Origin: a virus
Lineage: Duplodnaviria; Heunggongvirae; Uroviricota; Caudoviricetes
Length of the DNA stretch: 10,969 bases
Virus record (IMG/VR): IMGVR_UViG_2541047679_000011
Strand: one strand, 5' to 3'
Of this stretch, positions 1 to 10,638 are shown in pieces. The translations under genes were made by a program, and so were the position numbers. The notes beneath the pieces were generated by a model. That model was not told the DNA's origin. It searched no databases and was given only the letters and a program-made list of their open reading frames with translations. How positions within the stretch are numbered: the stretch's first letter is position 1; each line of letters begins with the position of its first letter.

Positions 1-603
1 GTGCTGATTGGCTATGTAAGGGTATCAACAAATGACCAGAATACAGACCTGCAACGAAACGCTCTTGTTTGTGCAGGATGTGAACAAATATTTGAAGATA
101 AATTAAGCGGGACAAAGACAGACCGACCGGGATTAAAACGCGCTTTAAAGCGCCTTCAAAAAGGTGACACGCTGGTTGTCTGGAAACTGGATCGCCTCGG
201 GCGAAGCATGAAACATCTGATTTCTCTCGTCGGGGAACTACGGGAGCGAGGAATTAATTTTCGCAGTCTGACCGACAGCATAGATACATCTTCTCCAATG
301 GGGCGTTTTTTCTTCCACGTGATGGGTGCCCTGGCTGAAATGGAACGTGAATTAATTGTTGAACGTACACTGGCCGGACTGGCGGCAGCGCGTGCACGGG
401 GGCGCACAGGCGGACGTCGACCGAAGCTGACAAAAGAACAGCATGAGCAAATAGCAAGGCTGATCAAAAACGGGCACGACAGAAAACAACTGGCAATAAT
501 TTACGGCATTGGTATATCGACGATTTATCGTTACCACCCCGCAGGAGAATCAAGCGGAACAATAGAGAAGAGTCAGGAAACAAATAAATATCCTCCGGCA
601 TAG
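1..603 (+). CDS. Serine recombinase / site-specific DNA invertase, Hin/Gin/Pin/Cin family
   Basis: 200-aa ORF with GTG start at window position 1. The N-terminus MLIGYVRVSTNDQNTDLQRNAL carries the catalytic Ser in the YVRVST motif typical of resolvase/invertase enzymes. The C-terminal helix-turn-helix (QLAIIYGIGISTIYRY) and the 190-200 aa length match Pin/Hin/Gin. Upstream sequence, including any RBS or crossover site, lies outside the window. Confidence 0.9.
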   Translation: MLIGYVRVSTNDQNTDLQRNALVCAGCEQIFEDKLSGTKTDRPGLKRALKRLQKGDTLVVWKLDRLGRSMKHLISLVGELRERGINFRSLTDSIDTSSPMGRFFFHVMGALAEMERELIVERTLAGLAAARARGRTGGRRPKLTKEQHEQIARLIKNGHDRKQLAIIYGIGISTIYRYHPAGESSGTIEKSQETNKYPPA

Positions 604-615
604 CCGGAGGTTTTT
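592..615 (+). terminator. Perfect 8-bp GC-rich hairpin followed by a T5 run, overlapping the invertase stop codon; either an intrinsic terminator or the IS200 subterminal hairpin
   Basis: Read directly: cctccggc (592-599), loop ata, gccggagg (603-610), then ttttt (611-615). The invertase TAG (601-603) sits in the loop/stem. It cannot be decided from sequence alone whether this hairpin belongs to the host gene or to the IS200 right end. Confidence 0.45.
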
Positions 616-691
616 CAAATGCGCCTATAAGGCTCTCTTACCAGCCGCGCCCTAACAGGCGCACACGATCTGACATTTGCATCCAACTTCG

Positions 692-1150
692 TTACTTACG
701 GCCCGTAAACGGGCTGCCCGGATAGGGAATCGATAACTGCTCTCCCATTTTATCCTCTTCAAGCTGGTGCTTTATGTAATCCTGTATCTTCGCCGTGTTC
801 TTACCCACCGTATCGACGTAATACCCTCTGCACCAGAACTCCCTGTTCCTGTATTTGAATTTCAAATCACCAAACTGCTCGTAAAGCATCAGACTGCTTT
901 TCCCTTTCAGATATCCCATAAAGCCTGATACGCTCATTTTGGGCGGGATCTCCACAAGCATATGGATATGATCTGCACAGCATTCAGCTTCCAGAATCCG
1001 TACACTTTTCCACTCACACAGCTTTCTCAAAATACAGCCTATTGCTCTACGCTTCTCTCTGTAGAACACCTGTCTTCGGTATTTTGGCGCAAATACTATG
1101 TGATATTTACAGTTCCATCGGGTGTGCGCTAAGCTCTTTTCGTTCCCCAT
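692..1150 (-). CDS. tnpA: IS200 transposase TnpA (Y1 HUH transposase, 152 aa)
   Basis: Translation MGNEKSLAHTRWNCKYHIVFAPKYRRQVFY...HIHMLVEIPPKMSVSGFMGYLKG...YVDTVGKNTAKIQDYIKHQLEEDK shows the HxH (HIHMLV) motif and the catalytic Tyr region typical of IS200 TnpA. The track ORF 692-1201 starts 17 codons further upstream at a poorer start; ATG at 1148-1150 is preceded by an AAGGGGG SD (minus strand). Confidence 0.9.
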   Translation of the reverse strand: MGNEKSLAHTRWNCKYHIVFAPKYRRQVFYREKRRAIGCILRKLCEWKSVRILEAECCADHIHMLVEIPPKMSVSGFMGYLKGKSSLMLYEQFGDLKFKYRNREFWCRGYYVDTVGKNTAKIQDYIKHQLEEDKMGEQLSIPYPGSPFTGRK

Positions 1151-1151
1151 T

Positions 1152-1229
1152 GGGACCCCCTTTTGATTTCTTGTTTGACACTTGCAGTTGCCAGACCGCA
1201 AGGTGTTTTAACAAATCAAAAGGGGTTTT
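1152..1229 (-). promoter_or_regulatory. IS200 tnpA 5'UTR stem-loop that can sequester the ribosome-binding site
   Basis: On the minus-strand mRNA, upstream CCCCUUUU (plus-strand 1218-1229 aaaaggggtttt) is complementary to AAAAGGGG, which overlaps the SD just 5' of the tnpA ATG (plus-strand 1152-1165). IS200 translation is known to be repressed by such a 5'UTR structure. Confidence 0.45.
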
Positions 1230-1262
1230 AATAACTAGCTCAAAGCTGAAAGCTTTCCGGAA

Positions 1263-1285
1263 CCCCCAGCCTAGCTGGGGGTTTT
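1263..1285. other. Perfect palindrome hairpin at the IS200 left end (8-bp stem, 3-nt loop) with a T4 run on the plus strand
   Basis: cccccagc (1263-1270), loop cta, gctggggg (1274-1281), then tttt (1282-1285). This is consistent with the subterminal hairpin / transcription-blocking structure described for the IS200 left end; the assignment rests on position relative to tnpA. Confidence 0.5.
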
Positions 1286-1297
1286 CTGTGCACAAAT

Positions 1298-1835: not shown

Positions 1836-4652
1836 TCAATCTTTATCGTAAAAACTGCCACGTCCGGCACGGGCGCGCCGTTCCATCTCTGCCCTGACCA
1901 TTTCACCGACCAGTTTCGCCAGTTCGCGGGGATTCTGCGTAACAACGTTATGCAGATGGACATGAATTTCACCACCAAATCCGGAGGCAACAGGCTCCCG
2001 GTTACGGGAAGTTACAGGAACTGATGCCACTGGCGATCGTATGGCCTCCGCCACCGGGCGGGAGCTGGCCGCAACAACAGGGACCAGCGCCGGAGGCAGC
2101 GGAGCCGGGACCACGGGGGTGATATTAATTGCGGGGGCAGGCTTACTGACCTGCGCAATCTTCCGCTCCTGCCACTCCCCACGAACAGCAAGTGCGCGGG
2201 GCAGGTTCTTAAAGACAATATCGCCGGGGCCAATGCGTTTTTTCGTCTCATCAACCAGCTTACCTGTGTTATCAGCAATTTTGCTGAGTCTGCGTAGCGT
2301 CCCGGTATTGCTGTCTGTGAGCGGTTTGTTGTCTTTGGGTTTATCACCTCCGGTGCCATTGCCATTTTCCACAGGCTTCGGCGGATTGATTTTCGCCAGG
2401 TCCCCCTGAAGCAAGGCAACCTTGTCCTGAAGAATGGCCGCACGCTGTGCGTCTTCGATTTTCTTGCGCGCCCTTTCCGCTTCATCCGGAAGGACGCCAA
2501 GTTTTTCAAGTATCCACGCCAGCGTATCCAGTAGCATTTTTGCAGGTGTCAGAACAAGTTGTAACGCACCGCCAAGAACGTTACCGAATATCTCGCCAGC
2601 ACTGGTACATTTATCCAGCGTTTCCTTGCTGGACTCCATCGGTGACAGCAGCGATTTAAACCAGTTAAACACCAGGCTGATCCCGCTTCCGATTGCGTCA
2701 AAAACAGGACCAAACCGTTCAAAGGTTTCGCGCAACGGGGTCAGCCTTTCCATAATCCCGCTGAACACCCCGGCAAAAAATGCCCTGATGGGATCCCAGT
2801 ATTTCCAGATAAGAACGGCAGCTCCGGCAAGCGCAGCCACGATAAGACCAACCGGACTGAACAGCGCCCCGATAGCGCCTCCCAGTAAAGAAACGGAACC
2901 CGTCACCATTCCCCACAGCGCAGGCAACACCCTGACGACATTCATTGACCGGGTAAGAATGTCAAAACCAAGACGCAGGGTGGCCAGCTTCCCGTAAAGC
3001 ACCCCAATAACCAGCGACAACGAGCCAATCGTTGCAGTCATTGCCAGCAACGCACCGCCTGCTATCAGTAGCTGGCGCGTCAGCACCGGATGGGCCTGCG
3101 CCAGCGAGGTGATTTTTTCAAGCACCCGCGTGAGCCACTGCGTGACAGAACGCAGCGGACCGTCAACCAGATCACTGATGCGAATACGAAGACCTTCCCA
3201 TGCGCTGTCGAGATTTTTCAGGTCCCCATCAAGATTATCGGCCATTACTTTTGCGACGCGATCGGCCTCTCCCCTTGCCCCCTGCAATTCTCTGGTCAGT
3301 TTTTGCAGCTCTCCTGAACCAGCCGCCGCAACAAGCGTCTGCAAACCAACGAACGCCTCTTCTCCGGCGATGTCCTTGAAGAAGGAAACCTGGTCCACCT
3401 GTCCGTATTTTTGTGTCGCCTTATAAAGATCAAGCAGCACATTCTCCATCGGGCGCATTTTGCCTCTGGCGTCAGCAACTGACACTCCCAGCTCTTTCAG
3501 CGCATCAGCCGCAGCTTTTGGCGGTGATGCAAGGCGGGACAGACTTGCGCGCATGGCCGTACCAGCATCGCTTCCGCGAAGACCATTATTGGCAAGCATC
3601 CCGGCCATGGCTGCCGCTTCTTCAAGACTGATACCAAGTTTTGCGGCAACCGGACCGGTATACTTCATGGTTTCGCCCAGCGCGCGTAAATCAGTATTGG
3701 TCCGGGTGAATGCCGCTGTCAGCGTATCGCCAACCCGGTCCATTTGATCGGCTGTCAGGTTGAACTGTGTGAGGATATTGGAGCCTATATCAGCCGTCTC
3801 GCCGAGTTCGACGCCACCTGCCAGCGCCATATTAAGAACACCGGGCAATGCGGCCTGAATGGCCTGCGGAGTAAAACCAGCCATTGCCAGAAAGCTCTGC
3901 CCACTGGCGGCATCACTCGCAGTAAACTGTGTTTCAGAGCCAAGTTTTAACGCCTGCTCACGCAGCGCCTTAAACTGCGGGCTGTTTTTGTCGATTCGCG
4001 TCAGTGCCTGAACGCGGGACATCTCTTTGCCGAACCCGATCGCAGGCTGCAAAAAACGCCCGGCAGCATAGCCGCCCGCCGCTGCCGCACCAATTGCCAG
4101 TGCACCACCTGTTTTCAGTTTTCCCGCTGTTTCCTGCGCGCGCGAATACCGCTCACGCGCCCGCGTTACACGCGCAAGCGCCTGCCGTTCGCGTTCAAGC
4201 TGGTTGTTGTACTGTTCGGTGCGTCTGATGGCCTGCTGGATGGTGTTATCGCTGCCTGTCAGGGAAATGCCGTGGCGTTTCAGCTCTCCGCCAAGCTCCC
4301 GCATTTTTTGAATTTCCCGTGTGCGCGATTCATTCAGGCGTTCAAGCCGGGTGCTTAACTGCTGCATCAGCTTTTGTTGTTTTTCGCTGAGCACTGTACC
4401 CGTGCGTTGTAACTGATTAAGGGCGTTAAGCTGGCGTCGTGCTTTCACGATGCCCGCATCCGCTTTACTGACAGCGTCACGGGCGCGCTCAAATGAACGC
4501 GCCTGACGCTCGAGATTTTTGATCGCCCCCTGCGTTCGCTGGATGGAGTCACCAAACTGCCCCATCAGGCGGCGGGCGTTTTCGGCAGGCCGGGTCAGCC
4601 TGTCAACGGCGCTGAAAGCGACCCGGATATCAAGAGTCTTCATTATCTGCAT
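1836..4652 (-). CDS. Phage tail tape measure protein (P2 gpT-like)
   Basis: 938-aa ORF with a coiled-coil, Q/R/E/L-rich N-terminal half, a central cluster of hydrophobic Gly/Ala-rich helices (LLIAGGALLAMTATIGSLSLVIGVLYG..., AALAGAAVLIWKYW) and a Pro-rich C-terminus, as expected for a tape measure protein. It follows the E/E' pair. An alternative start at ATG 4641-4643 (MKTLDIR) has better SD spacing. Confidence 0.9.
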   Translation of the reverse strand: MQIMKTLDIRVAFSAVDRLTRPAENARRLMGQFGDSIQRTQGAIKNLERQARSFERARDAVSKADAGIVKARRQLNALNQLQRTGTVLSEKQQKLMQQLSTRLERLNESRTREIQKMRELGGELKRHGISLTGSDNTIQQAIRRTEQYNNQLERERQALARVTRARERYSRAQETAGKLKTGGALAIGAAAAGGYAAGRFLQPAIGFGKEMSRVQALTRIDKNSPQFKALREQALKLGSETQFTASDAASGQSFLAMAGFTPQAIQAALPGVLNMALAGGVELGETADIGSNILTQFNLTADQMDRVGDTLTAAFTRTNTDLRALGETMKYTGPVAAKLGISLEEAAAMAGMLANNGLRGSDAGTAMRASLSRLASPPKAAADALKELGVSVADARGKMRPMENVLLDLYKATQKYGQVDQVSFFKDIAGEEAFVGLQTLVAAAGSGELQKLTRELQGARGEADRVAKVMADNLDGDLKNLDSAWEGLRIRISDLVDGPLRSVTQWLTRVLEKITSLAQAHPVLTRQLLIAGGALLAMTATIGSLSLVIGVLYGKLATLRLGFDILTRSMNVVRVLPALWGMVTGSVSLLGGAIGALFSPVGLIVAALAGAAVLIWKYWDPIRAFFAGVFSGIMERLTPLRETFERFGPVFDAIGSGISLVFNWFKSLLSPMESSKETLDKCTSAGEIFGNVLGGALQLVLTPAKMLLDTLAWILEKLGVLPDEAERARKKIEDAQRAAILQDKVALLQGDLAKINPPKPVENGNGTGGDKPKDNKPLTDSNTGTLRRLSKIADNTGKLVDETKKRIGPGDIVFKNLPRALAVRGEWQERKIAQVSKPAPAINITPVVPAPLPPALVPVVAASSRPVAEAIRSPVASVPVTSRNREPVASGFGGEIHVHLHNVVTQNPRELAKLVGEMVRAEMERRARAGRGSFYDKD

Positions 4653-5168
4653 TCCCGCTGCGAAGTGCCGCCCGCTCGCGCCAGCTAACCACTTCGCCGG
4701 GCGTCATCATGAAGATTTCGGCGGGCGACCAGTTAAAAATGGCGGCAATATCCGCCACCAGATCTTCGATGTGCTCAAAGCACACCAGGGTGATTACGCT
4801 GCCGTCTCCTGCACGCTCTTCGCGCCAGAGTCTGGCTCGCTCATAAAATTTACAGCCACAGCGCACAACTGAATAAAATCGCGTGACGACATTTTTTTAA
4901 TCATCACTTCATCCAGTCGTGGCGAGGTCACGCGAGGCAACAGCGTAAACATGGTATCCGCTTTCAGATTCAGCACATCAGACAGCGACAGACCACGCAG
5001 GGATCCAGCCTGCTCAATAGCCCCGGTGATCTCCACATACGTGATTTTTTCGCCACCACGCTCAATTGGTCGGGTCAGTTTTACGCCACGTTCGACAGCC
5101 ATATCCTCACCTGCCGTCACATCATCCGCCACGGTGTTATTCCGGGTTTCAGTATCGATGTCTTTCAT
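4630..5168 (-). CDS. gpE+E' fusion product made by programmed -1 ribosomal frameshift (predicted)
   Basis: The -1 frame relative to E is open from the TAA at 4897-4899 (minus) down to 4630 and overlaps the T start by about 23 nt. Two slippery candidates lie in the E frame inside this window: an A7 run (minus strand, plus-strand T7 at 4892-4898) and the heptamer A_AAT_TTT (minus, 4851-4845). The feature is a join across the shift site; the exact site is undetermined. Confidence 0.55.
4794..5168 (-). CDS. Tail assembly chaperone, P2 gpE-like
   Basis: 124-aa ORF between the tube gene and the tape measure gene. It has an AAGGAG SD 7 nt upstream of the ATG. Its 3' part overlaps a -1-frame ORF that runs into the start of T, which is the E/E' arrangement of P2-like phages. 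Confidence 0.75.
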   Translation of the reverse strand: MKDIDTETRNNTVADDVTAGEDMAVERGVKLTRPIERGGEKITYVEITGAIEQAGSLRGLSLSDVLNLKADTMFTLLPRVTSPRLDEVMIKKMSSRDFIQLCAVAVNFMSEPDSGAKSVQETAA

Positions 5169-5223
5169 CAGTTGTCTCCTTTTCAGTCAGAGGCGACGCA
5201 CTGCGCCGCCTGCATATTACTTA

Positions 5224-5736
5224 TCAGCCAAGCCCAAGCGCGGAACGGATACGGTCAGGCACAATGTCCTTGCCGTCCTTCCGGTAGATGTGGTTCAACA
5301 GGTCGATTTCCCACAGCGGGCGATCGTTAACGCTCAGCTTGTAGTAGGTGTTTTTGACAGCGTAAGTGTGTGATGTGGCTTCGCCCTGTTTGGCTTCCCC
5401 CATATCAATTTCCGTCACACGCCCGCGCATCTCGATTTCATACAGATCGCTTTCTGCATCGGTGTAGTATTCACCCGCAAAACGCAGCAGCGTGCCGTCA
5501 ATCGTGCCGCCATATTTAAGGAACAGCGCACGAACAGCTCCCCCCATAACAAAACTCGCATCAAGCGCGGAGTCGTCCAGACCGAGATCAATACTTACCG
5601 CCCCCATCATGCCACCACCACGATAGCTGTCGGTTTTGCGCGTCAGTTTGGGCGGCGTGACGGACGTCACCTTACCCACTTCGTTTTCACCATCCACAAA
5701 CAGCGTAAAAAAGCGAAGATGTTTTGGTACAGCCAT
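5224..5736 (-). CDS. Major tail tube protein, P2 gpFII-like
   Basis: 170-aa ORF with translation MAVPKHLRFFTLFVDGENEVGKVTSVTPPKLTRKTDSYRGGGMMGAVSIDLGLDD...MRGR...EIDLLNHIYRKDGKD, resembling P2 FII (tube) in length and motifs (PKLTRK, DLGLDD). The start overlaps the FI stop (TGATG) and is preceded by a GGGAGGTG SD. Confidence 0.9.
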   Translation of the reverse strand: MAVPKHLRFFTLFVDGENEVGKVTSVTPPKLTRKTDSYRGGGMMGAVSIDLGLDDSALDASFVMGGAVRALFLKYGGTIDGTLLRFAGEYYTDAESDLYEIEMRGRVTEIDMGEAKQGEATSHTYAVKNTYYKLSVNDRPLWEIDLLNHIYRKDGKDIVPDRIRSALGLG

Positions 5737-6920: not shown

Positions 6921-7077
6921 AGCTTCAGCCCCTTGTATCCGTTAAATGATTCGGCAACAATCATCACCCACCACGCGCGTAATCTCACCCCTGCGCCGTT
7001 CTCCCGACCCGGCGACAACAAAAAGCAGTAACCCCCTCCGCACGCACATGCGACCATGCCGCACAGGGAGGGAACAG
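6921..7077. promoter_or_regulatory. Divergent FI / D intergenic region; presumed location of back-to-back late promoters
   Basis: 157-bp gap between the divergent start codons of FI (6918-6920, minus) and D (7078-7080, plus). P2 late operons are driven by Ogr-dependent promoters, but no clear TGT-N12-ACA Ogr box was found by eye, so the call is positional only. Confidence 0.3.
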
Positions 7078-8187
7078 ATGACCGATACCACCATGCAATT
7101 GCTCAGTCAGGGCACAGACCCCGTGAAAATGCCGGATTTTGATATTCTCGCGGAGGGTAAAACGCTGTCAGGCGTGGCAGAGCGCCTGATGAGCCTGTCA
7201 CTGACCGACAACCGGGGATTTGAGGCGGACCAGCTCACCATCACGCTGGATGATGCGGATGGTCAGTTGCAGCTACCGCCACGGGGCGCGTGCCTGACGG
7301 TTCTCATTGGCTGGAAAGGAGAACCGCTGACAGAAAAAGGCACTTACATTGTTGATGAAATCGCTCACGAAGGACCGCCGGACAGGCTGACTGTTTCAGC
7401 CAGAAGCGCAGATTTTCGGGATGAATTTAACGTTAAACGTGAGGTGTCCTGGCATGATGTGACCGTTGAGCGTGTGGTATCCGCCATCGCTCATCGGTAT
7501 GGTCTGAAACCGCAAATCAGCGAAATGCTGATGGATATCGAAATCGACCACGCCGACCAGACCGAAGAAAGCGACATGTCCTTTCTTACGCGCATGGCGG
7601 AAATGCTGGGCGCAATCACCACGGTAAAAAGCGGTAATCTGTTATTCATTATGCCAGGCGGTGGCGTGAACGCACAGGGCCAGCCGTTGCCATCGTTCGC
7701 CATTACACGCAGCAGCGGCGATCGCCATCAGTTCCGCATTGCTGACCGCGAGGCGTATACGGGTGTACGCGCCTACTGGCTTGATCTTAATTACGGGAAA
7801 AAGAAAAAAGTCAGCGTGAAACGCCGCAAACCGCCAAAACCCAAAAAGGAGAAAAGCAGTAGCCGTGAAGGTGATTATATGGAAGGCGCGGAAGGCAATG
7901 TGTTTGTGTTACGCAAGACTTATCAGAACGAGCAGGCAGCAAGACGCGCAGCGGCGGCAAAGTGGCAGCAGCTACAACGCGGAGCCGCATCATTCTCCAT
8001 CATGCTGGCACGTGGACGCGCAGAACTCTACCCCGAAATGCATGGCACGGTAACAGGATTTAAAAGCGAGATTGATAATCAGGACTGGATTATTGCGAAA
8101 GCCGAGCACACCATTGATAACAGCGGCTTTACCACGCAGCTTGAGCTTGAAGCAAAAATCCCGGAATGGATAGCAGAAACAGAGTGA
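7078..8187 (+). CDS. Phage late control / tail protein D (P2 gpD family)
   Basis: Translation from ATG 7078 (GGGAGGG SD 6 nt upstream): MTDTTMQLLSQ...PDFDILAEGKTLS...LSLTDNRGFEADQLTITLDDADGQL...GW..., matching gpD-family proteins. The track ORF starting at 6946 adds 44 N-terminal residues with no SD and would occupy the divergent promoter region. Contains an unusual K/R-rich insert (GKKKKVSVKRRKPPKPKKEK). Confidence 0.85.
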   Translation: MTDTTMQLLSQGTDPVKMPDFDILAEGKTLSGVAERLMSLSLTDNRGFEADQLTITLDDADGQLQLPPRGACLTVLIGWKGEPLTEKGTYIVDEIAHEGPPDRLTVSARSADFRDEFNVKREVSWHDVTVERVVSAIAHRYGLKPQISEMLMDIEIDHADQTEESDMSFLTRMAEMLGAITTVKSGNLLFIMPGGGVNAQGQPLPSFAITRSSGDRHQFRIADREAYTGVRAYWLDLNYGKKKKVSVKRRKPPKPKKEKSSSREGDYMEGAEGNVFVLRKTYQNEQAARRAAAAKWQQLQRGAASFSIMLARGRAELYPEMHGTVTGFKSEIDNQDWIIAKAEHTIDNSGFTTQLELEAKIPEWIAETE

Positions 8188-8438
8188 GCAACTTGGATGC
8201 ATTAGCTCAGACCAAAGCTGGCACGCTTACGACGCAGAACCAAACCTAATCTGACAGTCCGCTTTGTACCAGAAGCAGACATTAATAACATTATTTGCAA
8301 TAACCAATTGATATTGTTTTTATTGCGTGTTATTAAAGCATATCCACTTGTGGTCATTACCAACTACTCGTCTATTTTTATTTGTGAACAAAATCAGATT
8401 TTAGCTAGAAACATTTTGTGAAAAAAATAGCGAAATTT

Positions 8439-8467
8439 TTGTAGGAAGTAAGTCAAGCAGATATAGC
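8439..8467 (+). promoter_or_regulatory. Candidate sigma70 promoter for the cargo nuclease gene
   Basis: TTGTAG (8439-8444), a 17-nt spacer, then TATAGC (8462-8467), inside a region of roughly 22% GC about 70 nt upstream of the cargo ATG. Pattern match only, and several alternative AT-rich hexamers exist. Confidence 0.25.
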
Positions 8468-8536
8468 AGCAGATCGGAAGTTATTGGTCATGCGTTATTT
8501 ACTCTAAGCAAAAAAACTTAGTACAGGAAAAAATAA

Positions 8537-10120
8537 ATGGCAAGTAAAGCTAACCTTGTTAATTTGGATGCGATGATTTCAAGAGAGGATTTCTCTGCTC
8601 AATCCGATAATGATTTATCTTTCGAATCTATACAAAATATAGCTATGAGAGATATCGGAATGTTGTCTGGCCTACTCAGAAAACCAGATTTTCAGAGAGA
8701 AACAAATCACTGGACTCCAGAGCAAGTAGTTTCATTACTAAAGAGTTTTGTCACAGGTGATTTAATACCATCCGTGATTTTATGGAAGAGTTCTTTTGTG
8801 TTTGTTATAGACGGTGGTCATAGACTTAGTGTTTTAAGAGCATGGAAAGAAAATGACTATGGTGATGGCACTATATCGCAAAAATTCTTTGGAAATAGTA
8901 TTTCCGGAGAGCAAAGAAAGATCGCACAAAAAACAAGAGAATTGGTTGACTCCACAGTTGGTAAATGGTCTGAGATAGAAAGAAAAATGCAGGATTCTAA
9001 TAATGACCATGATGAGAGTAGAAGGCTTACAAATATTTACGTAAGGGCTTTGCAAGTCCAGTGGGTTAAAGGTGATTCCGATAAGGCAGAAACGTCTTTT
9101 TTCAATATAAATAAAAAAGGTACTCCTTTAGATGAGGTTGAGGAAACTTTACTTAGGCATAGGAAGAAACCTATATCTATCGCTGCGAGAGCAATAATAC
9201 GAGCAGGAAAAGGACATAGATACTGGTCCTCTTTCCCTGAGGATAAGACTAAAAAGATAGAAGAGCTTTCCTCAAATATAAACTCCTCTCTTTTCGATCC
9301 AGACGTTAAATCTCAAATTAAAACACTCGATCTACCTCTGGGTGGCTCACGCGGTGTGAGGTTAGCTCTTGATATCTTAATAGATCTTATGTCTATTTCC
9401 GTGTCCCAGAGCGAAAATTATCAAAAAGAATTGCTTAATCAAATCGAAGATTCAGATGGAAGCGAAACTGTTGTTGTTCTGGAAAAAACCGCAAAATTAC
9501 TAAATTGGATTACTGGAAATGACAAGGGCAGCTTAGGATTACATCCGGCCGTGTATTTTTATAGTGCATCAGGCAGACATGTGAATCCTATGTTTTTAGG
9601 GACGACTCTGTTTATAGCGAAAAAATTAAAATTTAATGATAAGAACTTCTTCAAAAAATTCACAAGTATTAGGTTTAATTTAGAGAAAACTCTAATAAAC
9701 AATAAGTCTATGCTAGCATCGTTAGTGAACAGAGCAGGACATAAGAAAAGAACTGAGTATTACTCTAATTTATTTGAGTCAATGATTGATTTCCTTCTTG
9801 AGGTAAAAAAGAAAGACAAAAGCATGAGTGATTTCAGCCTTACAGAAAGTGAAATACTCCAGCTTGCTCACTTTGAAGGTAATATCCTATCTGGGACAAG
9901 TATCAGCAATGCAACTAAAATTAGTGAGGAAGCGAAGAATGCTGTATTCATTGATACTGCATTAGCTTCAGCAATTACATGTCCTATCTGCCAGGGATAT
10001 TTAGATCCTTCAAAATCTGTCTCATATGATCACATCAAAAGAGTTGCAGATGGTGGTAAAGGTTCGGCAAAAAATACTCAGTTAACTCACCCGTATTGCA
10101 ATATGTCTGTCAAAAATTAG
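8537..10120 (+). CDS. Two-domain nuclease: N-terminal DUF262/ParB-like (DGQHR-type) domain plus C-terminal HNH (His-Me finger) endonuclease motif; GmrSD/BrxU/SspE-like candidate anti-phage defence protein
   Basis: 527-aa ORF with AGGA SD 8 nt upstream. N-terminal motifs KPDFQRETNHW and FVIDGGHRLSVL match the DUF262 signature (xQRxxxW ... DGQQR/DGQHR). The C-terminus CPICQGYLDPSKSVSYDHIKRVADGGKGSAKNTQLTHPYCN is a classic HNH pattern (CxxC...DH...GG...N...H..CN). GC content is about 35-38%, against about 57% in the neighbouring tail genes. Confidence 0.85.
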   Translation: MASKANLVNLDAMISREDFSAQSDNDLSFESIQNIAMRDIGMLSGLLRKPDFQRETNHWTPEQVVSLLKSFVTGDLIPSVILWKSSFVFVIDGGHRLSVLRAWKENDYGDGTISQKFFGNSISGEQRKIAQKTRELVDSTVGKWSEIERKMQDSNNDHDESRRLTNIYVRALQVQWVKGDSDKAETSFFNINKKGTPLDEVEETLLRHRKKPISIAARAIIRAGKGHRYWSSFPEDKTKKIEELSSNINSSLFDPDVKSQIKTLDLPLGGSRGVRLALDILIDLMSISVSQSENYQKELLNQIEDSDGSETVVVLEKTAKLLNWITGNDKGSLGLHPAVYFYSASGRHVNPMFLGTTLFIAKKLKFNDKNFFKKFTSIRFNLEKTLINNKSMLASLVNRAGHKKRTEYYSNLFESMIDFLLEVKKKDKSMSDFSLTESEILQLAHFEGNILSGTSISNATKISEEAKNAVFIDTALASAITCPICQGYLDPSKSVSYDHIKRVADGGKGSAKNTQLTHPYCNMSVKN

Positions 10121-10150
10121 CAATGAGTTAACAATTTTATATCAGATAAC

Positions 10151-10175
10151 AGCCTTCTATAATTGAAGGCTTTTC
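10151..10175 (+). terminator. Intrinsic terminator downstream of the cargo nuclease gene
   Basis: agccttc (10151-10157), loop tataatt, gaaggct (10165-10171), followed by ttt; located 31 nt after the cargo stop codon. Confidence 0.6.
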
Positions 10176-10377
10176 GTATGATGCTTTCTTCAATAGAAAT
10201 GTTGAGTATGATGGAAGATCTCTAATAGTGAATGGTTCGGTTAGGCCAGATACCTACCACTCTACACAAAACTTTGTGTCCGATCCTCGCTCACAGCAGT
10301 CGCTCCCAAGGGTTTCAGTTGGAGTCTGAGCTAGTACAACTTAGAATAGCGGCAGCACCACGTTAAGGGAGGTCGCT

Positions 10378-10638
10378 ATGTTCCGTTGTCCGCTTTGTGG
10401 CGCATCTGCCCGTATCCGCACCAGTCGTCCGGAAAATGATTCAAACACCGTGCGGCAAAAGTATTACCAGTGTAACAATCTGGAATGCGGCGTATGCTTC
10501 TCAACACTGGAAGCTTTCCATAAATTCACATCAAAACACGCCTCCGGCGTTCACTCTTCAGAAGGTATCCCGTGGCATGAGCTGCCAGCTTCACACAGGG
10601 GAAACAATCAGATGAGCTTGCCTTTACCTCAGAATTAA
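10378..10638 (+). CDS. ogr: Ogr/Delta-family zinc-finger late transcription activator
   Basis: Translation MFRCPLCGASARIRTSRPENDSNTVRQKYYQCNNLECGVCFSTLEAF... shows the CxxC...RTSR...YxQCxNxxC pattern of P2 Ogr. AGGGAGG SD 6 nt upstream. The 86-aa ORF is somewhat longer than the 72-aa P2 Ogr. Confidence 0.8.
   Translation: MFRCPLCGASARIRTSRPENDSNTVRQKYYQCNNLECGVCFSTLEAFHKFTSKHASGVHSSEGIPWHELPASHRGNNQMSLPLPQN

What the first reader, a model, noticed from the sequence alone, without database searches (positions are those of the whole stretch)
4630..4900. Predicted programmed -1 frameshift generating gpE+E', with two candidate slippery sites
The -1 frame relative to E is open from 4896 down to 4630 and runs into the start of T, as in the P2 E/E' and lambda G/GT systems, where it sets the chaperone to tape-measure stoichiometry. 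Two shift-prone sequences lie in the E frame inside that window: an A7 homopolymer (minus strand; plus T7 at 4892-4898) immediately after the -1-frame TAA, and a near-canonical X_XXY_YYZ heptamer A_AAT_TTT (minus 4851-4845) 16 codons before the E stop. Which one is used sets the junction and the size of the E+E' product.
Basis: partly seen in the sequence, partly recalled or inferred. Interest (0 to 1): 0.4.

Follow-up and report, generated by a model that had tools for sequence, protein, structure and literature searches.

The report
P2-type tail chaperone frameshift site
This is the well-known programmed -1 ribosomal frameshift that lets P2-like phages make two tail-assembly chaperones (E and E+E') from one start. 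In this prophage lineage the slippery sequence sits one codon upstream of the usual family site, and the A7 run is not the programmed site.

Summary
The window is the tail module of a Xuanwuvirus (P88/phiSM-like, Peduoviridae) prophage on the minus strand: sheath, tube, E (5168-4794), a -1 frame open from 4896 to 4630, then the tape measure gene T.

The -1 frame encodes a genuine P2 E' domain (Pfam PF06528, 3e-12). A fusion joined at A_AAT_TTT aligns with the experimentally defined P2 E+E' in one stretch through the junction (1e-28).

Comparison with about 90 homologous loci places the shift at the invariant Phe108 codon. Most relatives, P2 included, carry xxT_TTT_TTG there. P88-type relatives have GTA AAT TTT TTG. 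The window type has GTA AAT TTT ATG, which destroys T_TTT_TTG and leaves only the overlapping canonical heptamer A_AAT_TTT (4851-4845). This allele is fixed in 598 of 5426 complete E. coli genomes and is carried by the plaque-forming phage phiSM.

The A7 run is rejected as the programmed site. Its phasing is wrong (T_AAA_AAA). P88-type relatives have a -1-frame TGA just downstream. Only frame 0 is conserved between A7 and the heptamer.

No stimulatory RNA structure is conserved across the family. The window type has one small, statistically borderline hairpin 5 nt downstream.

Verdict: an ordinary member of a known system with a minor relocation of the slip site.

The parts
4794..5168 (-). Gene E, the tail assembly chaperone read in frame 0 (124 aa)
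   Evidence: ORF with ATG at 5168 and AAGGAG 8 nt upstream. Matches phrog_103 'tail protein' at 1e-36. The Pfam PF10109 Phage_TAC_7 match is weak: 20.6 bits, below the 25-bit cut-off. Aligns colinearly with P2 gpE. Lies between tube gene FII and tape measure gene T.
4845..4851 (-). Slippery heptamer A_AAT_TTT (Asn107 and Phe108 codons in the P and A sites), the proposed -1 shift site
   Evidence: It is the only canonical X_XXY_YYZ heptamer in the E/-1 overlap. Its Phe codon is the invariant Phe codon of the family's T_TTT_TTG site. The heptamer is intact in all 599 complete-genome records that matched the window-type 41-mer. About 600 records carry a window-type allele. A_AAU_UUU gives 11.4% shifting with a strong stimulator in E. 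coli reporters (PMC4066793 Table S3).
4630..4845 (-). E' coding extension in the -1 frame (71 codons from TAT 4845-4843, stop TGA 4632-4630). E+E' = join(5168..4845, 4845..4630), 179 aa
   Evidence: PF06528 at 3.3e-12 and phrog_1756 at 8e-38. In 42 unique homologues the -1 frame has no stops from the Phe codon onward and is better conserved than frame 0 in the overlap. BLASTP of the fusion against P2 E+E' gives 1e-28.
4794..4844 (-). Dual-coding overlap: the last 16 sense codons of E plus its stop, and the first 17 codons of E'
   Evidence: Both frames are open and conserved: AETE in frame 0 and GGDGE in frame -1.
4821..4839 (-). Small G+C-rich hairpin (CG.GCCAG-ACU-CUGGC.CG) 5 nt 3' of the heptamer, a possible weak stimulator
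   Evidence: Folds at -8.0 to -9.3 kcal/mol, in the top 2-5% of equal-sized windows in the tail genes. Absent from the P88-type allele (-2 kcal/mol). Not significant in longer windows (z -1.0 to -1.5). No counterpart in other homologues.
4892..4898 (-). A7 run (Lys-Lys codons AAA AAA + A), rejected as the programmed site; prone to genomic indels
   Evidence: Phased T_AAA_AAA. In P88-type relatives the -1 frame hits TGA after it. Genomic A8 alleles exist in draft and metagenome assemblies, but none in 601 complete-genome records.
1836..4643 (-). Gene T, the tape measure protein (935 aa from ATG 4643; an alternative ATG lies at 4652); its start overlaps the end of E'
   Evidence: PF10145 PhageMin_Tail at 5e-56. 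The start is as annotated by PGAP and in the phiSM record.
5224..5736 (-). Gene FII, the tail tube protein, directly upstream of E
   Evidence: PF04985 at 2e-45.

Best explanation
Ribosomes translating gene E usually stop at TAA 4796-4794 and make the 124-aa chaperone gpE. A minority slip one base backwards when Asn-tRNA (AAU) and Phe-tRNA (UUU) occupy the P and A sites on A_AAU_UUU (4851-4845). The two tRNAs re-pair with AAA and UUU, and translation continues in the -1 frame from TAT 4845-4843 to TGA 4632-4630. The product is the 179-aa fusion gpE+E', with the junction ...AVAVNF|YERARLW....

By analogy with P2 E/E+E' and lambda G/GT, the shared E part binds the tape measure protein, the E' domain recruits tail tube subunits, and the shift frequency fixes the ratio of the two proteins.

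In most of the family the shift site is T_TTT_TTG, with the same Phe codon in the P site. In this lineage a TTG to ATG change (Leu to Met) removed that heptamer, and the overlapping heptamer one codon upstream now does the job.

Shown here: gene order, homology of both frames, the heptamer at the homologous position, and frame-specific conservation that switches at that codon. Inferred: that shifting actually happens there, how often it happens, and what the two proteins do.
For: 1. Context: sheath, tube, E, -1 ORF, tape measure and U all lie on the minus strand.

2. The -1 frame is a bona fide E' domain (PF06528 3.3e-12; phrog_1756 8e-38).

3. P2's annotated, experimentally based shift site is ggT TTT TTG (TTTTTTG is also quoted in PMC3091744). 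In codon alignment, P2 V-G-F-L corresponds to window V-N-F-M, so the window heptamer uses the same Phe codon one position earlier.

4. In 80 loci from representative genomes plus phage loci, nearly every locus where both frames could be identified has T_TTT_TTN at this Phe codon. The exceptions are the window type (A_AAT_TTT only) and a Klebsiella lineage (C_CCT_TTC only). Both kept a canonical heptamer one codon upstream, and no identified locus lacks both.

5. In 42 unique close-subfamily sequences anchored on the Phe codon, the 25 codons upstream hold 53 stops in frame -1 and none in frame 0 (identity 0.26 against 0.49). From the Phe codon on, frame -1 has no stops for 44 codons, and its identity in the overlap is 0.53 against 0.43 for frame 0.

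6. The fusion joined at this heptamer aligns with P2 E+E' as a single HSP through the junction (E=1e-28).

7. The ATG allele is fixed, not sporadic. The window-type 41-mer occurs in 598 of 5426 complete E. coli genomes. The same 41-mer with TTG occurs in none. The P88-type 41-mer occurs in 818.

8. Phage phiSM has an identical E/E' region (L001) and forms plaques and lysogens (PMC6456863).

9. A_AAU_UUU is a proven -1 shifter in E. coli: 0.07% unstimulated, 0.36% with the IS911 stimulators and 11.4% with the IS3 pseudoknot. The corresponding values for U_UUU_UUG are 0.12, 0.25 and 0.77% (PMC4066793 Table S3).
Against: There is no protein or reporter evidence for this lineage.

Without a stimulator, A_AAU_UUU gave only 0.07% shifting in reporters, close to the 0.055% background. 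No convincing stimulator was found here. There is no SD-like motif upstream by inspection of the sequence. The downstream folds are not significant (z -1.0 to -1.5). The small hairpin at 4839-4821 is only borderline.

A single-tRNA slip of Phe-tRNA on U_UUU would give the same protein, so sequence alone cannot separate the two.

Conservation of the heptamer within the window-type clade carries little weight, because those copies are at least 95% identical overall.
Confidence: 0.8

Rival explanations
1. The shift happens at the same Phe codon, but as a single-tRNA slip. Phe-tRNA on U_UUU (4848-4845) slips back by one base, in the A site or in the P site before AUG is decoded, without any need for the AAA triplet. 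The protein product is identical (...NF|YER...).
For: The feature shared by every homologue is xxT TTY at the invariant Phe codon. U_UUY tetramers are the second most shift-prone tetramers in E. coli (PMC4066793).
Against: In reporters the tetramers needed a strong pseudoknot and still reached only 0.8-1.8%. Both lineages that lost T_TTT_TTG have a full canonical heptamer one codon upstream (A_AAT_TTT and C_CCT_TTC). That would be a coincidence if the upstream triplet were irrelevant.
Confidence: 0.1
2. The A7 run (4898-4892) is the programmed site, or a second one, either by ribosomal slippage on T_AAA_AAA or by RNA polymerase adding an A. The product would be a 179-aa fusion with the junction ...MIKK|NVVTRFYSVVRCGCKF....
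For: In this allele the -1 frame is open from 4896. A-runs are slippery for ribosomes and polymerases. Genomic A8 alleles that encode exactly this fusion exist in several backgrounds, so slippage on this run does occur at the DNA level.
Against: The phasing is not X_XXY_YYZ, and the A_AAA tetramer gives 0.13-0.26% in reporters. In P88-type relatives the -1 frame hits TGA five codons later. More distant relatives lack the run and carry -1 stops between it and the Phe codon. Between A7 and the heptamer, frame 0 is conserved and frame -1 is not. The fusion would replace the conserved C-terminal segment of E that P2 E+E' retains. No A8 allele occurs in 601 complete-genome records.
Confidence: 0.03
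3. E' is a separate small protein started at an internal GTG. This is how current records model it: GTG 4785 gives 51 aa ('GpE family phage tail protein') and GTG 4866 gives 78 aa.
For: PGAP and phage records annotate it this way. The 51-aa and 78-aa proteins are common database entries.
Against: Neither GTG has a Shine-Dalgarno sequence at a usable distance; the nearest GGAG lies 20 nt before 4785 (sequence). The -1 frame is conserved as protein upstream of 4785, back to the heptamer (GGDGE motif; tblastn matches start at residue 1). Kp4848-1 has no start codon at the equivalent position. P2 E' is annotated as a -1 extension of E, from experiment.
Confidence: 0.04
4. The TTG to ATG change crippled the frameshift, so E' in this lineage is a decaying remnant of a defective prophage.
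For: The family's standard heptamer is destroyed. Unstimulated A_AAU_UUU is near background in reporters. Many copies are resident prophages, some with IS insertions or indels.
Against: The E' frame is intact and identical at the protein level between copies whose DNA differs. The allele occurs in 598 complete genomes with the heptamer preserved. phiSM has the same sequence and forms plaques.
Confidence: 0.03

Closest known systems
Bacteriophage P2 E / E+E' programmed -1 frameshift (Christie et al. 2002, J Bacteriol 184:6522; NC_001895 genes E and E+E')
   Same: Position between tube gene FII and tape measure gene T. E and E' are homologous in both frames (33% identity, E=1e-28 across the junction). 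The E' end overlaps the T start. The shift occurs at the same invariant Phe codon. No conserved stimulatory RNA structure was found, as reported for P2 and its Burkholderia relatives (PMC3091744).
   Different: The heptamer is A_AAU_UUU with Phe in the A site, not U_UUU_UUG with Phe in the P site, so the junction lies one codon earlier. E has a 22-residue N-terminal extension. The overlap is 16 codons against 5 in P2, and E' is 71 residues against 57.
P88-type Xuanwuvirus E/E' allele (Escherichia phage P88, KP063541; 818 complete E. coli genomes)
   Same: Same genus and gene order, 89% nucleotide identity, same A_AAT_TTT heptamer, same product length.
   Different: P88 type has GTA AAT TTT TTG and so keeps the family's T_TTT_TTG as well. 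Its -1 frame is closed by TGA after the A-run. It lacks the small hairpin downstream of the site.
Klebsiella Reipivirus-type allele (Kp4848-1; K. spallanzanii and K. michiganensis prophages L031, L032)
   Same: A parallel case. T_TTT_TTG is broken (TTT to TTC) and a canonical heptamer one codon upstream, C_CCT_TTC, remains as the only candidate.
   Different: The heptamer differs, the E' protein is 58% identical, and there is no downstream hairpin.
Lambda G/GT and the general tail assembly chaperone frameshift of tailed phages (Levin et al. 1993; Xu, Hendrix and Duda 2004; reviewed in PMC5009743)
   Same: The logic and genomic position are the same: two proteins with a shared N-terminus, made at a fixed ratio from the two ORFs just upstream of the tape measure gene.
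   Different: There is no sequence similarity to lambda G/T (stated for P2 in the literature; from my own knowledge). Lambda uses G_GGA_AAG.

Membership tests
P2-type gpE / gpE+E' tail assembly chaperone pair made by -1 programmed frameshifting | The two overlapping ORFs lie between the tail tube gene and the tape measure gene | tested here: met
   FII (PF04985) 5736-5224, E 5168-4794, -1 ORF to 4630, T (PF10145) from 4643.
P2-type gpE / gpE+E' tail assembly chaperone pair made by -1 programmed frameshifting | The upstream ORF is homologous to gpE | tested here: met
   phrog_103 at 1e-36. BLASTP against P2 E+E' covers the E part. The alignment has invariant residues. The Pfam PF10109 match alone is below its cut-off (20.6 against 25 bits).
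P2-type gpE / gpE+E' tail assembly chaperone pair made by -1 programmed frameshifting | The -1 frame extension is homologous to E' (Pfam Phage_P2_GpE) | tested here: met
   PF06528 at 46.1 bits against a cut-off of 23, E=3.3e-12.
P2-type gpE / gpE+E' tail assembly chaperone pair made by -1 programmed frameshifting | An in-frame slippery heptamer lies inside the overlap at the position homologous to P2's mapped site | tested here: met
   A_AAT_TTT uses the invariant Phe108 codon, one codon upstream of the T_TTT_TTG register. The heptamer sequence itself differs from P2's.
P2-type gpE / gpE+E' tail assembly chaperone pair made by -1 programmed frameshifting | E' has no translation start of its own | tested here: inconclusive
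   No SD precedes GTG 4785 or GTG 4866. The -1 frame is conserved upstream of 4785. Kp4848-1 has no start codon at the equivalent position. Absence of initiation cannot be proved from sequence.
P2-type gpE / gpE+E' tail assembly chaperone pair made by -1 programmed frameshifting | The fusion protein is actually produced at a set low frequency and is needed for tail assembly | not testable with these tools
   Indirect only: phiSM has the identical region and forms plaques. E+E' is annotated as essential in P2.
-1 PRF signals with a 3' stimulatory RNA structure (IS3, IS911 and dnaX type) | A stable hairpin or pseudoknot 5-9 nt downstream of the heptamer, conserved among homologues | tested here: not met
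   Across 75 unique homologues the mean z is -0.02 and the median local percentile is 0.44, with 4 of 75 below 0.05. The window type has only a 7-bp hairpin of -8 to -9.3 kcal/mol at a 5-nt spacing, at a percentile of 0.02-0.05.
Transcriptional slippage sites (long A or T runs) | A homopolymer of about 9 or more bases (own knowledge), conserved, with the alternative frame open downstream in relatives | tested here: not met
   The run is only A7. The -1 frame is closed after it in P88-type relatives, and the run is absent from more distant relatives.

The most novel reading that the evidence does not exclude
The slip site has turned over within a conserved recoding signal. In a prophage clade present in 11% of complete E. 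coli genomes, the family-wide U_UUU_UUG was lost. Shifting moved one codon upstream to A_AAU_UUU, a heptamer that depends strongly on stimulators, and a new small hairpin appeared 5 nt downstream in the same allele. This would be a natural example of a heptamer and a stimulator co-evolving to hold the E:E+E' ratio. A Klebsiella lineage (C_CCU_UUC) would be an independent replay of the site relocation, though without a hairpin.
Probability: 0.3. Interest if true: 0.35.

Novelty: new member of a known kind. Interest (0 to 1): 0.22.

Why it matters
The main value is for annotation. Current records for this very common E. coli, Shigella and Citrobacter prophage family model E' as an independently started 51- or 78-aa protein, or label it 'tail fiber protein'. 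None of the records examined, nor the protein collection queried, holds the 179-aa E+E' fusion with the heptamer junction.

The comparison gives a precise junction to annotate: join(5168..4845, 4845..4630). It also gives a simple rule for the family: the shift is at the invariant Phe codon.

For frameshifting research the interest is modest. There are two natural alleles, AAATTTTTTG and AAATTTTATG, plus a parallel Klebsiella case. Together they could test how much each overlapping heptamer contributes, and why P2-type sites are reported to shift efficiently without a recognisable stimulator.

Tried and rejected
- **Downstream stimulatory structure.** The 92-nt fold gives z=-1.53. The 55-nt windows in 75 homologues give mean z=-0.02. 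A local 24-nt hairpin scan gives a median percentile of 0.44. I rejected a family-level structure. The window-type hairpin is kept only as a weak lead.
- **Upstream SD-like stimulator.** None was seen by inspecting the 20 nt before the heptamer.
- **Upstream 9-bp stem enclosing the A7 run (4935-4927 / 4887-4879).** My 55-nt control window gave z=-3.8, but the tool fold of 71 nt gave only z=-1.56. I treated it as unproven.
- **NCBIfam scan of both candidate fusions.** No hit.
- **Literature.** The Christie 2002 paper could not be opened, so P2's roughly 10% efficiency and the essentiality experiments rest on my own knowledge of its abstract and on the NC_001895 annotation. Searches for Xuanwuvirus frameshifting found nothing relevant.
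- **A7 site.** Considered and rejected; see the rival explanations.
- **Database A7-junction fusion protein.** I considered whether it supports A7 shifting. It does not: it comes from genomic A8 alleles.
- **Unresolved loci.** Ten of the 80 genome loci were not resolved by my frame-finding script (Symbiopectobacterium pseudogene-like fusions and several G+C-rich loci). They were left out of the tallies.
Full report
**What the window is.** A megablast of 4400-5400 finds Xuanwuvirus phages (Peduoviridae, P2-like): P884B11 at 99.6%, Citrobacter phage Shae_phiSM at 99.4% and P88 at 88.7%. The same 600 bases occur in 1370 of 5426 complete E. coli genomes. On the minus strand the window carries:
- sheath FI, 6920-5736
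- tube FII, 5736-5224
- E, 5168-4794
- tape measure T, from 4643 or 4652 down to 1836
- U, 1829-1335

Pfam hits match these assignments.

**Checking the observation.** Every coordinate in the finding is right. E is in the frame of 5168. The -1 frame has TAA at 4899-4897, is open from 4896 and stops at TGA 4632-4630, inside the start of T. The A7 run is at 4898-4892. A_AAT_TTT is at 4851-4845, phased (GT)A AAT TTT, with 16 sense codons before the E stop.

The -1 frame is not open by chance. It matches Pfam Phage_P2_GpE at 3.3e-12 and phrog_1756 at 8e-38. Canonical in-frame heptamers are rare in these genes: 5 in 1787 codons, so 0.10 are expected in the overlap.

One detail of the finding is wrong. 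The site used does not alter product size, because any -1 shift in the overlap gives 179 aa.

**Where the shift site is.** The P2 reference record marks the -1 shift after ggT TTT TTG, seven codons before the E stop. PMC3091744 quotes the same TTTTTTG. Codon-by-codon comparison puts that site on one invariant Phe codon across the family:

| Phage or allele | Codons at the site | Residues |
|---|---|---|
| P2 | GTC GGT TTT TTG | V G F L |
| YenM06.16-2 | ATT GGT TTT TTG | I G F L |
| KSP20, Kp4872-3 | ACG CCT TTT TTG | T P F L |
| phiT5282H | GTC CCT TTT TTG | V P F L |
| P88 | GTA AAT TTT TTG | V N F L |
| Kp4848-1 | GTC CCT TTC TTG | V P F L |
| Window | GTA AAT TTT ATG | V N F M |

The window has therefore lost T_TTT_TTG through a TTG to ATG change. 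It keeps the canonical heptamer A_AAT_TTT, which overlaps the old site one codon upstream.

In 80 loci from representative bacterial genomes, nearly every locus where both frames could be identified has T_TTT_TTN at this codon. The only other exception is the Klebsiella lineage with C_CCT_TTC, again one codon upstream. No identified locus lacks both heptamers.

**Frame-specific conservation.** I anchored 42 unique sequences of the long-overlap subfamily on the Phe codon.
- In the 25 codons upstream, frame 0 has no stops and mean pairwise identity 0.49. Frame -1 has 53 stops, the nearest five codons upstream, and identity 0.26.
- From the Phe codon on, frame -1 has no stops for 44 codons. In the overlap it is better conserved than frame 0 (0.53 against 0.43), with the GGDGE motif sitting over AETE.

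The coding switch is therefore at this codon. A fusion joined there aligns with P2 E+E' as a single stretch through the junction (33% identity, E=1e-28).

**The A7 run.** It encodes Lys-Lys in a conserved I-K-K-M motif and is phased T_AAA_AAA, not X_XXY_YYZ. In P88-type relatives the -1 frame reaches TGA five codons after the run. More distant relatives have no such run and carry -1 stops between that position and the Phe codon. Between the run and the heptamer the two E. coli alleles differ at 2 of 18 residues in frame 0, while frame -1 is scrambled. A shift at A7 would also replace the C-terminal segment of E that P2 E+E' retains.

The exact A7-junction fusion protein does exist in sequence databases. 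This is because some assemblies carry a genomic A8 allele in several backgrounds (L094-L097, 99.25% identical to the window). None of 601 complete-genome records has it. These are indel mutants or homopolymer errors, not evidence for programmed shifting.

**Is the ATG allele functional?** It is fixed in a large clade. The window-type 41-mer centred on the A of ATG occurs in 598 complete genomes, the same 41-mer with TTG in none, and the P88-type 41-mer in 818. Because megablast needs a 28-base exact word, every one of those hits has the heptamer and the ATG intact. About 600 records carry a window-type allele overall.

Phage phiSM has an E/E' region identical to the window and forms plaques and lysogens (PMC6456863). 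Since E+E' is annotated as essential in P2, the lineage most likely still shifts.

**Efficiency and stimulators.** Reporter values from PMC4066793, Table S3, as % -1 frameshifting:

| Motif | No stimulator | IS911 stimulators | IS3 pseudoknot |
|---|---|---|---|
| A_AAU_UUU | 0.070 | 0.355 | 11.4 |
| U_UUU_UUG | 0.118 | 0.247 | 0.765 |
| C_CCU_UUC | 0.193 | 1.39 | 23.2 |
| A_AAA tetramer | 0.125 | not tested | 0.256 |

The background without a motif or stimulator is about 0.055%. The window's heptamer is thus a competent shifter but depends on a stimulator.

I found no family-wide downstream structure. The mean z is -0.02 over 75 homologues and the median local percentile is 0.44. This agrees with what is reported for P2 and its Burkholderia relatives.

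The window-type allele alone has a 7-bp G+C-rich hairpin at 4839-4821, 5 nt from the heptamer. It folds at -8 to -9.3 kcal/mol and ranks in the top 2-5% of local windows. The P88-type allele has nothing comparable (-2 kcal/mol). This was noticed after the fact and is borderline, and the parallel Klebsiella lineage has no such hairpin. I record it as a lead only.

**Separate initiation of E'.** PGAP and phage records model E' as a 51-aa protein from GTG 4785 or a 78-aa protein from GTG 4866. Neither start has a usable Shine-Dalgarno sequence. The -1 frame is conserved as protein upstream of 4785, right back to the heptamer. Kp4848-1 has no start codon at the equivalent position. These models are most likely artefacts of gene callers that do not handle frameshifts.

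**Conclusion.** This is the known P2-type E/E+E' tail chaperone frameshift. The only new element is a one-codon relocation of the slippery heptamer in a very common E. coli prophage lineage, possibly accompanied by a small new hairpin. It is a new member of a known kind, of low to moderate interest, and mainly useful for correcting annotation.

Noticed in passing
window 549-1297 (ORF 692-1201, minus strand): An IS200-like element (Pfam Y1_Tnp, 2e-37) is inserted between gene U and the DNA invertase gene (1-603, Resolvase + HTH_7), compared with phage phiSM, where the two genes are about 30 nt apart.
   Followed up: partly
window 8198-10336 (ORF 8537-10120, plus strand): A 2.1-kb insertion relative to phiSM lies between the gpD-like gene (6946-8187) and ogr (10378-10638). 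It encodes a 527-aa protein with GmrSD_N and HNH domains, which is probably a defence or restriction cargo gene in a prophage variable spot.
   Followed up: partly
L094-L097 (A-run at L094 871-878), equivalent to window 4892-4898: Natural alleles carry A8 instead of A7, in at least five protein backgrounds, which puts E and E' in one frame as a 179-aa ORF. They are seen in metagenome, Logan and draft assemblies but in none of 601 complete-genome records. Whether they are real inactivating indels or homopolymer errors is undecided.
   Followed up: partly
L010 1153-1662 and L036 1165-1596 (Symbiopectobacterium genomes): E and E' are fused in a single frame by indels near the slip site. They look like decaying prophage genes in symbiont genomes.
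   Followed up: partly
window 4767-4787 (minus strand): A perfect 9-bp hairpin (GGUGUGCUU/GAGCACAUC region) lies just 3' of the E stop and covers the GTG that PGAP uses as the E' start. A 6-bp core is kept in P88 but not in Klebsiella relatives. Its function, if any, is unknown.
   Followed up: no
window 4879-4935 (minus strand): A 9-bp stem (UCGCGUGAC / GUCACGCGA) encloses the A7 run in its loop. Its z-score was -3.6 to -4.8 in my 55-nt windows for the Xuanwuvirus group, but only -1.56 in the tool's 71-nt fold.
   Followed up: partly
window 4794-4844 compared with L002, L091 and L092: The 51-nt E/E' overlap is a divergence hot spot between the two E. coli alleles: 13 of 51 nt differ, against about 7% in the E'-only part. 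L092 is a mosaic with a window-type 5' part of E and a P88-type 3' part, which suggests recombination around the shift site.
   Followed up: partly
Public records L001 (OR565851), L002 (KP063541), L090 (NC_049341), L093 (NZ_CM167682): Annotation problems. The sheath gene is labelled 'late control gene D protein' in the phiSM record. E' is labelled 'tail fiber protein' in P88. The tube protein is labelled 'head closure' in RefSeq phage records. E is marked as a frameshifted pseudogene in strain NCCP 13983.
   Followed up: no
window 4056-4050 and 4125-4119 (minus strand, inside T); also 6747 (FI) and 5545 (FII): Other in-frame canonical heptamers occur in the tail genes: T_TTT_TTG and G_GGA_AAA in T, G_GGA_AAA in FI, and G_GGG_GGA in FII. 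I did not check them for open alternative frames, and they are probably chance occurrences.
   Followed up: no
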